This document shows, in pieces, positions 32,901-35,900 of a DNA stretch of 64,000 nt. Numbering within the stretch: the first letter of the stretch is position 1; every line of letters starts with the position of its first letter. Origin of the DNA: Anolis carolinensis (lineage: Eukaryota); NCBI RefSeq assembly GCF_035594765.1, contig NC_085842.1, positions 140,071,036-140,135,035 on the forward strand, in the 5' to 3' direction. The translations under genes were made by a program, and so were the position numbers. The notes beneath the pieces are model-generated. The model did no database searches. It worked only from the letters and a program-made list of their open reading frames with translations, and had not been told where the DNA came from.

Positions 32901-35900
32901 TGGTGATGATGATGATGATAACAGCAGCAACAACAACAACTTTATAACCTGCCCTATCTCCCCGAGGAGATGCAGGGTGGTTTCCAACAAAGGATGGCAA
33001 AGATTCAATGCTATAAAACAATACCAAATGAACAAATAGCCCCATGAATGAAACATCTATAACAAATTATAACAACTACTCACACAATTTAAATAATTTA
33101 ATTAAATAATTAATTTATAAATAACATATAAATCTATTAAACCTACAAAGTAACAAAATTAATAGTAATAGAGAATACTTCTGAACAATAAAATTAGGAC
33201 TGTTAGCTGACCACTTCAACCCTGGCACTTACTTGGCCTCCTCTAGCTCTTCTGTGCGTTGAATGGCATCTGTTTCATACTTGGTTCTCCACTGAGCCAC
33301 TTCACTGTTGGCCTTGGATAGGGCCCTCTGGAGCTCACTCTTGGCTTCCTGCTCCTCTTCATATTGTTCCCGGAGCAAATCACAATCATGGCGAGCAGAT
33401 TGCAAGGCATGGGCCAGTGCATTCTTCGCCTAAGTAAAACAAATGTTTCTGTTAGTAACAGAGATTCTTTTTTCCTCCTGTTCACATGGAATCATCTTCA
33501 CAAGTGTTTTGATTGTGCTTTTCCTGCATGGCAGGGGGTTGGACCAAATGGCCTATGTGATCTCTTCCAACTCTATTATTCTATGATTCTATGATTCTAC
33601 TCTACAGTAACAGACTATGTTGCTGCAGATGTTGATGAACTGCTATGTGCACCATGCTTCAGCTTTCGCTGGGGTTGATAGAAACTGGAGTTCAAAGCAC
33701 CTGGAGATCTATTTGTTCCCTAACTCTTTTGCATATGAGTAAAATTATTGTGGCTAATATCAGTGTTAACCAGAGGAAGTTTTTTTTCTTACAGCTCAAT
33801 CAAATTCCAGTCCTGTATCTATTCTAAGGCATTTGGATTGTATGAATGAGTGATGTAATCTATAGAGATTTACTGCTCTAATATGTGGGCTATCCAATTG
33901 TGCAATGCAAGGTACTATCAGAGTTGATATATTTTTCTACAATAGTAATGCTTATGTTTGGAAGATGTAATGTTAAAAATAATGAGTTGATGTTCAATAG
34001 ATGCAAGAGAAATTAAAACCTAGAGAAATTAGTACATTAACAGAGCTGTCATACTCATGAATTAATATCTCTGAGTTCAAGCACTTTGTCTCCCATCTCC
34101 ATGACTTTACGTACTTATGTGTGGATTAAACTGAAGGATAAATGATATAAGTCTGGCCTGCCAACATTTGAAATATTTATGTCACATGAGATAGGCATAG
34201 TTTCATCTGACCAAAGGCAGGACTCCACGAAGAAATAGAGCCCTATTCACTGTTAGACTAAATTCTATGGACAAGTCAACACAATGCAGTTGCATAATAT
34301 GCTAGAAGAGGAAAAGCTCACCAAATGTATCCAAAATGTTGAAAATTTATAAACATTTCATGAGATGGGGTTGTTGTATGTCTTTCAGGCTGTGATGGTT
34401 TTTCATTATGTCTAATTAAACAACAATATTCCCTAGTACAGGGGTCCCCAAACTAAGGCCCGCGGGCCACATGAGGCCCCCTGAGGCCATCTATCCGGCC
34501 CGCGGCCTACCCTGGGCGGGAGGGAGGAACAGCCAAGAGGAGGAAGGCTGCTGCTGCTACTGTACTGCTTCTTCTTAAGCGGTGCTGCTTCTGCTGGCTT
34601 GGCAGCAGGCGAGCAGAGGAGGGACTTTAGGACCTGCTCGCTCTCCTCCTTTTCCTCGCCTTCCTTCCTCTTCTCCCGAAGCAGCCTCCACCATCGCTTT
34701 GGAAGAGAAGGCAGGAGAGGAATAGGAATAGGAGGACAACGACGAGCGGGCCCTCCTCTGCCCGCCGCTTTGGAAGATGAGGAAGAAAGGAGAGGAAAAG
34801 GAGAACGGCGAGTGGGCCCCTAAAGTCCCTCCCCCGCCCGCTGCTTCAGTCATCAAGACAAACATTGTTTTGAAGGCTTTCATGGCTGGGATCACTGGGC
34901 TGCTGTGAGTTTTCCGGGCTGTCTGGCCATGCTCCAGAAGCATTCTGACCTGACATTTCACCCACATCTATGGCAGGCATCCTCAGAGGCTCTGAGGATG
35001 CCTGCCATAGATGTGGGCGAAATGTCAGGGGAGAATGCTTCTGGAGCATAGCCAGACAGGCTGTAAAACTCACAACAACCTTTCTTAACAATCACTAAAA
35101 GCCTTCCAATTCAAGAAGAACACAGAATTTCAACCCATATCAGACAGGAATCAACTAGGGGCATTTAGCATGTCAAAAATTGCTATAAAGTAATTTAAAA
35201 TTGGTTGTATAACATAATTATACAATTCTCCTCCCACACTGCAATAGATTATGAGGAAATTAAAAATTGAAAATTAATATAAAAAACTGCAAGGGAAAAT
35301 AGGATAAAACAAAATAATATGAAATCAAACTTTTGGGGGAAAGCCACAAAAGCCACAGGCGTCTTTCCCAGACTGGGTTAAACAAAGCTGCTTCTAGTAA
35401 GTCAACCCAGGAAATGCAGTATATTGACACAGTGGAGGTGTCCAGGCAAAGGTGATCAACATGGGAAATGGTTATAAACCAAACTATAGATCCCAGTGTT
35501 TCATAGGATGGAACCAAGGCAGGTAAAGTGACATCACTCTGCTATAATTACGCAATGCATTTAGCCACTAAGGGCCCTTCCACACAGCCATGTGACCCAC
35601 AATATCAAGGCAGATAATCCACAATATCTGCTTTGAACTGGGTTATCTGGGTCCACACTGGCATATAACCCAGTTCAAAGCAAATAATGTGGGATTTTAT
35701 ACAGCTGTGTGGAAGGGGCCTAAGTCACCTTTCTTCACATATTACAGGCCCTTCCACACAGCCCTATATCCCAAAACATCAAGGCAGAAAATCCCACAAT
35801 ATCTGCTTTGAACTGGGTTATCTGAGTCCACACTCAGATAATGTGGGATTTTCTGCCTTGATATTCTGGGATATAGGGCTGTGTGGAAGGGGCCTCTGAA

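What the first reader, a model, noticed from the sequence alone, without database searches (positions are those of the whole stretch)
34949..35030. Back-to-back hammerhead ribozymes with intact cores in a myosin intron
Seen: on the MYH3 sense strand CCU-CUGAGGA-U-GCCUGC(cauagau)GUGGGU-GAAA-UGUC^AGG, and its mirror on the + strand with GUGGGC-GAAA. Both keep CUGANGA, GAAA, helix II and a GUC cleavage triplet (predicted cuts 34952/34951 and 35026/35027). Established: Penelope-like elements carry minimal type I hammerheads lacking helix III that are thought to cleave as dimers. Inference: MYH3 pre-mRNA contains a potentially self-cleaving motif preceded by its own antisense arm, so cleavage would be gated by folding. 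Wobble substitutions (G-U closing helix II, AUGU for ACGU) may lower activity.
Basis: partly seen in the sequence, partly recalled or inferred. Interest (0 to 1): 0.7.

Follow-up and report, generated by a model that had tools for sequence, protein, structure and literature searches.

The report
Hairpin-locked Penelope hammerhead riding hAT transposon
The two self-cutting RNA motifs are real, but they are a mirror-image scrap of a very common lizard jumping gene, carried into this myosin intron inside a young DNA transposon that is likely missing at this spot in other individuals, and their own long hairpin is predicted to keep them from folding, so this is ordinary and likely inactive.

Summary
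Both motifs and both cut sites are as reported. They are near-copies of the published hammerhead of the Anolis Penelope-like element PAc (Poseidon_Ac). The core pattern has 28,113 exact matches in this genome, about 1,900 head-to-head pairs occur, and 16 of 29 copies sampled without regard to the core have it intact. This pair is cargo in a 1,939-bp non-autonomous hAT transposon (16-bp TIRs, 8-bp TSD, at least about 40 places). It sits in a 2,974-nt intron of a likely MYH3 and appears absent at this site in 3 of 4 runs laid across it. In the myosin-sense RNA the antisense arm comes first and is predicted to pair with the core as it emerges. Helix II costs 41 kcal/mol and the hammerhead fold 64-67. 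The gene holds no second intact sense copy for a dimer. The parent ribozyme is published as inactive without element protein. This is a lock, not a gate. One side lead: 29 of 30 stand-alone palindromes have one tailed and one tail-less arm, 25 with a flanking direct repeat, which suggests two-ended priming. The scan noted such palindromes before on other DNA.

The parts
33430..36403 (-). Host intron (2,974 nt) of a sarcomeric myosin heavy-chain gene, likely MYH3
   Evidence: Flanking myosin-rod reading frames and GT/AG sites; first coding exon hits myosin-4/-7 chains at E 1e-21 to 1e-16; SCO1 upstream. Splice sites inferred, no RNA.
34431..34438 (.). Left 8-bp target-site duplication of the hAT
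   Evidence: Identical to 36378-36385
34439..36377 (.). 1,939-bp non-autonomous hAT DNA transposon with 16-bp TIRs (34439-34454, 36362-36377); carrier of the palindrome
   Evidence: 27 of 30 best loci have both TIRs, 26 of those 27 a perfect 8-bp TSD; TIR identical to hAT-HT2N1_AC in PMC3014272 Table 1
36378..36385 (.). Right 8-bp target-site duplication, 18 nt from the splice donor
34872..34989 (-). Long Penelope (PAc) pLTR arm, myosin-sense, ending at ORF +116 (with tail)
   Evidence: matches the published PAc template
34949..34989 (-). Minimal type I hammerhead, myosin-sense: core 34986-34980, helix II, GAAA 34959-34956, predicted cut 34952/34951; G-U closing pair and AUGU
34990..35080 (+). 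Short Penelope arm ending at ORF +83 (no tail); the antisense arm in the myosin pre-mRNA
34990..35028 (+). Minimal hammerhead, antisense to myosin: core 34992-34998, predicted cut 35026/35027; proximal helix I only 2 bp
36033..36205 (-). Second Penelope pLTR fragment (the part upstream of the hammerhead), also hAT cargo
   Evidence: 79-83% identity to the best pLTR copies
35571..35895 (.). Palindromic repeat-derived (MITE-like) cargo in the hAT
   Evidence: inverted and direct repeats; found in a few other loci; family not identified

Best explanation
This is a mirror-image stub of the Penelope-like element PAc carried as cargo inside a young, multi-copy hAT DNA transposon in a myosin intron, and its hammerheads are predicted to be locked in a long hairpin and likely inactive. 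Step 1 (product shown, mechanism inferred): PAc insertion often leaves two 5'-truncated pLTR ends head to head, one with the 30-40-bp tail and one without; the hammerhead lies in that part of the pLTR, so each strand gets one. Step 2 (shown by anatomy, order inferred): one such stub, already decayed at CpGs, came to lie in a non-autonomous hAT and was copied with it to at least about 40 places. Step 3 (TSD shown, polymorphism inferred from contig ends): one copy landed in this intron recently. Step 4 (predicted): in the myosin pre-mRNA the antisense arm is made first and pairs with the core as it emerges, so the RNA forms a duplex of about 90 bp that is spliced out with the intron, uncut.
For: Over the core-to-cut stretch the arms differ from the published PAc template at 2 (-) and 1 (+) positions, all CpG C-to-T (by eye; against locus L059). 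The cut lies 26 nt after the ATG codon, as published. 28,113 exact core matches, reversed control 0. 1,915 forward and 1,939 reverse head-to-head matches with spacer up to 30 nt. 40 places carry this exact junction; of 30 fetched, 21 lie in the hAT and 9 stand alone. hAT copies are 95.1-99.7% identical to this one and three are letter-identical to each other. Run X1 holds both filled junctions; in X2, X5 and X7 the unique exon-side contig stops matching exactly at 36378, without the TIR, and runs on for 66, 21 and 66 letters; 66 is the distance back to 34365 at an empty site; X11 has the same 66-letter overhang. Folding: helix II +41.3 and the whole fold +64 to +67 kcal/mol with the arm, +0.3 and +3.4 without it; 15 of 15 positions checked pair with the other arm at P of at least 0.998 at 32 C in 1.2 kb of context. 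Published: the PAc hammerhead does not cut without PAc protein, and no RNA-seq reads end at its site; a single min-HHR showed no cleavage.
Against: No cleavage or RNA data were obtained. The folding model omits tertiary contacts, proteins and editing. All invariant core letters are kept in both arms despite 12 and 10 differences from the reference. Among genomic copies non-CpG core positions differ less than other positions (9 of 319 against 45 of 783, p 0.045); this may reflect selection in the active element or my single reference, and I did not separate the two. Within 25 distinct hAT copies 1 of 24 core columns varies against 199 of 1,756 elsewhere (p 0.51, low power). The letters of the empty-site overhang were not displayed. 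No TSD of the original Penelope insertion was found around this palindrome. No autonomous hAT partner was found.
Confidence: 0.92

Rival explanations
1. One reading: the myosin-sense hammerhead is a conditional switch that cuts the pre-mRNA when the antisense arm is displaced (helicase, ADAR editing, PAc protein).
For: Core letters, a 6-bp helix II, a 4-bp proximal helix I and the GUC triplet are present. Without the arm the fold costs only 3.4 kcal/mol. PAc protein activates the parent ribozyme in vitro.
Against: Barrier of 41-67 kcal/mol, closed once about 7 nt of core have emerged. No second intact sense copy in the window. AUGU weakens the dimer helix by 4.3 kcal/mol. The arm ends at ORF +116, short of the 172 nt that the paper found needed for PAc-driven insertion and proposes as the protein-binding region. 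The insertion appears absent in 3 of 4 runs laid across it.
Confidence: 0.02
2. The hammerhead is dead, but the duplex or the 1.9-kb insert affects the host: ADAR editing, small RNAs, or changed splicing, since the element ends 26 nt from the donor and nearly triples the intron.
For: 86 of 94 positions pair in the sense RNA, longest run 39. The intron would be 1,027 nt without the element (coordinates). That long intronic duplexes are ADAR substrates is established knowledge, recalled.
Against: No RNA data. About 1,900 like pairs exist genome-wide, so editing here would be ordinary. The splice sites are untouched.
Confidence: 0.05
3. The palindrome or the ribozyme helps the hAT family spread and is kept for that.
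For: It is present in all 30 best-scoring loci, which were found by searching with it.
Against: That sample is circular. Other families with the same TIR are shorter and more numerous (PMC3014272 Table 1). hATs move as DNA (established). Core columns are not significantly more conserved.
Confidence: 0.01

Closest known systems
PAc / Poseidon_Ac hammerhead of Anolis carolinensis (Frangieh et al. 2024, PMC11167929; parts 1-3 of 4 of the text read, figures not seen)
   Same: Same sequence apart from 1-2 CpG changes from core to cut site; ATG at the start of helix II; cut 26 nt after the codon; long arm ends within the published RT start window (+111 to +118).
   Different: No ORF beyond +116, upstream pLTR cut off at helix I, paired with its own antisense copy, and carried by a DNA transposon.
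Minimal hammerheads of metazoan Penelope-like elements (Cervera and de la Pena 2014, PMC4209133; parts 1-2 of 4 read)
   Same: No helix III loop, extra nucleotide after A9, long helix II, short helix I; the paper already reports dual motifs on opposite strands 100-700 bp apart.
   Different: The sense copy has G10.1-U11.1 instead of G-C, and neither copy has a palindromic 15.2-16.2 pair (U-G); no same-strand partner for a dimer.
Inverted, tailed insertions of endonuclease-bearing Penelope-like elements (Arkhipova et al. 2013, PMC3846280; Craig et al. 2021, PMC8557442; passages read)
   Same: Head-to-head 5'-truncated pLTRs, tail at one end only, palindromic junction.
   Different: A minimal 209-bp form; its own TSD is not recognisable here, while 25 of 30 stand-alone examples keep a flanking direct repeat.
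Non-autonomous hAT-HT2 / hAT-N4 families of the anole (Novick et al., PMC3014272; passages and Table 1 read)
   Same: Same 16-bp TIR, 8-bp TSD mostly with central TA, low divergence; that paper reports TE fragments as cargo in hobo elements and Poseidon fragments in a Helitron.
   Different: No family near 1.94 kb with this TIR is in that table (listed: 1,485, 1,065, 833, 780 and 732 bp). Repbase and Dfam could not be checked.

Membership tests
Minimal type I hammerhead of Penelope-like elements | CUGANGA, GAAA and NUH core in order | tested here: met
Minimal type I hammerhead of Penelope-like elements | Long helix II with an extra nucleotide after A9 and a G10.1-C11.1 pair | tested here: inconclusive
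   6 bp and extra U in both; G-C in the + copy, G-U in the sense copy
Minimal type I hammerhead of Penelope-like elements | Helix I closing the cut site | tested here: inconclusive
   Sense copy 4 bp including G-U, distal stem has a C-C mismatch; + copy 2 bp then G-G
Minimal type I hammerhead of Penelope-like elements | Palindromic 15.2-16.2 allowing a dimer helix III | tested here: not met
   AUGU instead of ACGU in both; self-duplex +2.6 against -1.7 kcal/mol
Minimal type I hammerhead of Penelope-like elements | Able to fold in its transcript context | tested here: not met
   Predicted only: +41 to +67 kcal/mol (sense), +38 to +67 (+ strand)
Minimal type I hammerhead of Penelope-like elements | Self-cleavage | not testable with these tools
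   Needs a bench assay
PAc/Poseidon pLTR-derived inverted stub | Sequence identity to the PAc pLTR-ORF junction | tested here: met
   By eye against the template printed in PMC11167929; best alignments to genomic copies 88-93%
PAc/Poseidon pLTR-derived inverted stub | Head-to-head arms with the tail on one end | tested here: met
   Arms end at +116 and +83
PAc/Poseidon pLTR-derived inverted stub | Own target-site duplication | tested here: not met
   None found around this copy; likely lost at or after capture (inference)
PAc/Poseidon pLTR-derived inverted stub | Linked RT and GIY-YIG ORF in relatives | tested here: inconclusive
   Two candidate frames beside pLTRs gave 0 Pfam hits; no full-length element was fetched
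Non-autonomous hAT transposon | Short TIRs starting YARNG and an 8-bp TSD | tested here: met
   26 of 27 two-ended copies have a perfect 8-bp TSD; motif from PMC3014272
Non-autonomous hAT transposon | Autonomous partner with the same TIR in the genome | tested here: inconclusive
   None in 20 of 104 DUF4371 loci or 30 of 150 Dimer_Tnp_hAT loci checked; the literature lists hAT-HT2_AC
Rfam hammerhead families | Covariance-model match | tested here: not met
   No hammerhead hit at gathering score or E up to 10

The most novel reading that the evidence does not exclude
The palindromes record two-ended target-primed reverse transcription: the PAc dimer cuts both DNA strands about 13 bp apart, and one 3' end starts copying at the +117 site while the other starts at the +84 site, so the two cDNAs meet head to head near the hammerhead. 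The near-strict one-tail rule with a 12-14-bp duplication would then be the in vivo footprint of how Penelope inversions form, and this myosin copy is one such product later amplified by a DNA transposon.
Probability: 0.4. Interest if true: 0.45.

Novelty: already known. Interest (0 to 1): 0.12.

Why it matters
As a myosin regulator it does not matter: it is one of thousands of decayed copies of a characterised ribozyme, predicted to be locked, in an insertion that other individuals seem to lack. It is a small, clear example of a DNA transposon spreading a retroelement's ribozyme palindrome. The side result may be useful: arm ends and duplications of stand-alone palindromes give a genome-scale constraint on the open question of how Penelope-like elements make inverted insertions, testable in the existing PAc in vitro system.

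Tried and rejected
Rfam: no hammerhead hit; mir-1295 and other miRNA models scored far below their gathering scores (55 against 100 bits) and were taken as generic hairpin matches. Sequencing runs: no RNA holder listed, so expression, editing and cut ends were not examined. The second lay did not display the overhang letters. Autonomous hAT partner: not found; the Dimer_Tnp_hAT search was filled by one other family. Pfam scan of two frames beside pLTRs: 0 hits. Supplements of PMC11167929: no hit for the motif or for 'inverted'/'palindrom' in the 3 files held as text; file 2 is figures only and the GenBank file could not be read, so Fig. S2 may already show the one-tail pattern. Paper searches: hammerhead+Penelope+Anolis gave 1 paper; none of the Penelope-focused papers among the 6 listed held 'twin priming'; hammerhead+hAT+Penelope+captured gave 3 listings, none on this by title or abstract start; one search was seen as a listing only and not used; the 2026 retrozyme preprint was seen as two passages and added nothing. 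The library lacks most subscription papers. Rejected: cis dimer of the two motifs (opposite strands); a mobile mini-family made of the palindrome alone (the 9 stand-alone copies with this junction have unrelated flanks and their own duplications). The first TSD count, 26 of 30 with wider windows, was replaced by the stricter 25 of 30. One of 30 loci (L105) lacked the hammerhead region and was dropped from the intact-core count.

Full report
Observation. The two motifs are in the window as written. My descriptor scan of both strands of the whole window finds exactly two hits, with C3 at 34986 (-) and 34992 (+). The predicted cuts, 34952/34951 and 35026/35027, are right. The motifs are the inner parts of a 91-bp inverted repeat, 90% complementary with a 1-nt spacer, that folds at -162 kcal/mol (z -22). 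Rfam has no hammerhead match here. The host is a minus-strand sarcomeric myosin heavy chain, with an inferred intron at 36403-33430. SCO1 exons lie about 24 kb upstream on the same strand; by recalled gene order that makes it MYH3.

What the motif is. PMC11167929 prints the RNA template of PAc (Poseidon of Anolis carolinensis). From core to cut site the window's arms differ from it at two and one positions, all CpG C-to-T. The cut lies 29 nt from the A of the ATG, that is 26 nt after the codon, as published. The genome is therefore inferred to be an anole's. A 32-letter core pattern has 28,113 exact matches here, reversed control 0. Among 30 copies fetched by a pattern downstream of the cut, 29 cover the core and 16 of them have it intact, so intact cores are no surprise.

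The back-to-back layout. A head-to-head pattern with spacer up to 30 nt gives 1,915 forward and 1,939 reverse matches, most pairs counted on both strands. This window alone has two more clear pairs, at 17599-17836 and 49943-50138, both with broken cores. Inverted, 5'-truncated pLTRs with a tail at one end are described anatomy (PMC8557442; PMC3846280), and dual minimal hammerheads on opposite strands are noted in PMC4209133. In 30 stand-alone palindromes from this genome, 29 have one arm ending at ORF +111 to +117 and the other at +83 to +94; none has two tails. 25 of 30 have a flanking direct repeat of at least 8 bp, mostly 12-14, against 18 of 870 mismatched flank pairs. These 30 were picked by centre patterns, not at random. 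The window's pair ends at +116 and +83 but shows no such repeat.

The carrier. The pair lies in a 1,939-bp element (34439-36377) with 16-bp TIRs and a perfect 8-bp duplication. Of the 30 best loci, 27 have both TIRs and 26 of those a perfect 8-bp TSD. The 24 other distinct copies are 95.1-99.7% identical to this one, and three copies are letter-identical. An internal segment finds 42 matches from 40 candidates scored of 103, a lower bound. The TIR equals that of hAT-HT2N1_AC, though no 1.94-kb family is in that table. Of 40 places with this exact junction, 30 were fetched: 21 in the hAT, 9 stand-alone. The element also carries a second pLTR fragment (36033-36205) and other palindromic DNA. I found no autonomous partner.

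Age at this site. In run X1 contigs cross both filled junctions. In X2, X5 and X7 (three other studies) the low-depth contig from the exon side stops matching exactly at 36378, without the TIR, and runs on for 66, 21 and 66 letters. At an empty site 66 letters lead back to 34365, where X1's left-junction contig begins. The letters were not shown, so the empty allele is inferred, though the fit is exact.

How it works. In the myosin-sense RNA the antisense arm is transcribed first. Constrained folding puts helix II 41.3 kcal/mol and a hammerhead-shaped fold 64-67 kcal/mol above the ensemble. Without the arm the costs are 0.3 and 3.4; for two non-palindromic copies they are 0.1-0.8 and 6-11. The core is predicted paired once about 7 nt of it have emerged, and this holds at 32 C in 1.2 kb of context. 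Minimal hammerheads are thought to need a dimer, and a single one showed no cleavage. The two motifs here are on opposite strands, the window has no other intact copy, and AUGU weakens the dimer helix by 4.3 kcal/mol. The parent ribozyme cuts only with PAc protein, is not needed for insertion in vitro, and leaves no RNA-seq ends. Shown: anatomy, copy numbers, duplications. Predicted: the lock. Inferred: order of capture and polymorphism. Untested: cleavage.

Against this reading. Both arms keep every invariant letter despite 12 and 10 differences from my reference copy. Genomic copies differ less at non-CpG core positions than elsewhere (2.8% against 5.7%, p 0.045), while CpG positions, including G12, differ at 28%. 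Within the hAT family there is no significant core conservation (1 of 24 against 199 of 1,756 columns, p 0.51, low power). No RNA evidence was available.

Novelty. The ribozyme, the inverted layout and TE cargo in anole DNA transposons are all in print, and the scan has noted similar palindromes in other windows; it holds no note on a hAT carrier or on this sequence. The most novel lead is the one-tail rule as a footprint of two-ended priming. It fits the published two-strand cleavage and extension, the predicted dimer and the two start sites. However, in vitro both strands used the same start sites, I did not see the figure giving the second site, and fold-back self-priming or endonuclease resolution remain rivals. 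Earlier scan notes raise the same idea and are not independent support. Verdict: already known, interest 0.12.

Noticed in passing
window 49943-50138: A second head-to-head Penelope stub inside the same myosin gene, with a 9-bp flanking repeat; G12 mutated in the + copy and the core partly deleted in the sense copy.
   Followed up: partly
window 17599-17836: A third head-to-head stub downstream of the myosin gene, one tailed arm, 8-bp flanking repeat, both cores broken.
   Followed up: partly
window 30107-30283 and 34369-34393: Older, decayed Penelope fragments in myosin introns; the first looks like a degenerate inverted pair.
   Followed up: no
window 34604-34845: A purine/pyrimidine inverted repeat of about 80% complementarity inside the hAT, not found in 108 other loci; a second long hairpin in the intron.
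   Followed up: no
L006, L018, L001-L030: hAT copies vary in structure: L006 has a 175-bp tandem gain in the MITE-like part and L018 a 153-bp deletion in the hairpin region.
   Followed up: no
L161-L189: A very large young hAT family with open frames of 830-842 aa fills nearly all 150 Dimer_Tnp_hAT matches scored; it shares no sequence with this carrier and was not identified.
   Followed up: no
window 34949-35029: The Rfam mir-1295 model matches the hairpin at 55 bits (gathering 100) with several shared letters around the GAAA; likely chance.
   Followed up: no
L052-L055; G000:C1:2664324-2664874: Head-to-tail arrays of short hammerhead-bearing pLTR units (periods 220 and 173 bp), the arrangement in which dimer cleavage could occur.
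   Followed up: no
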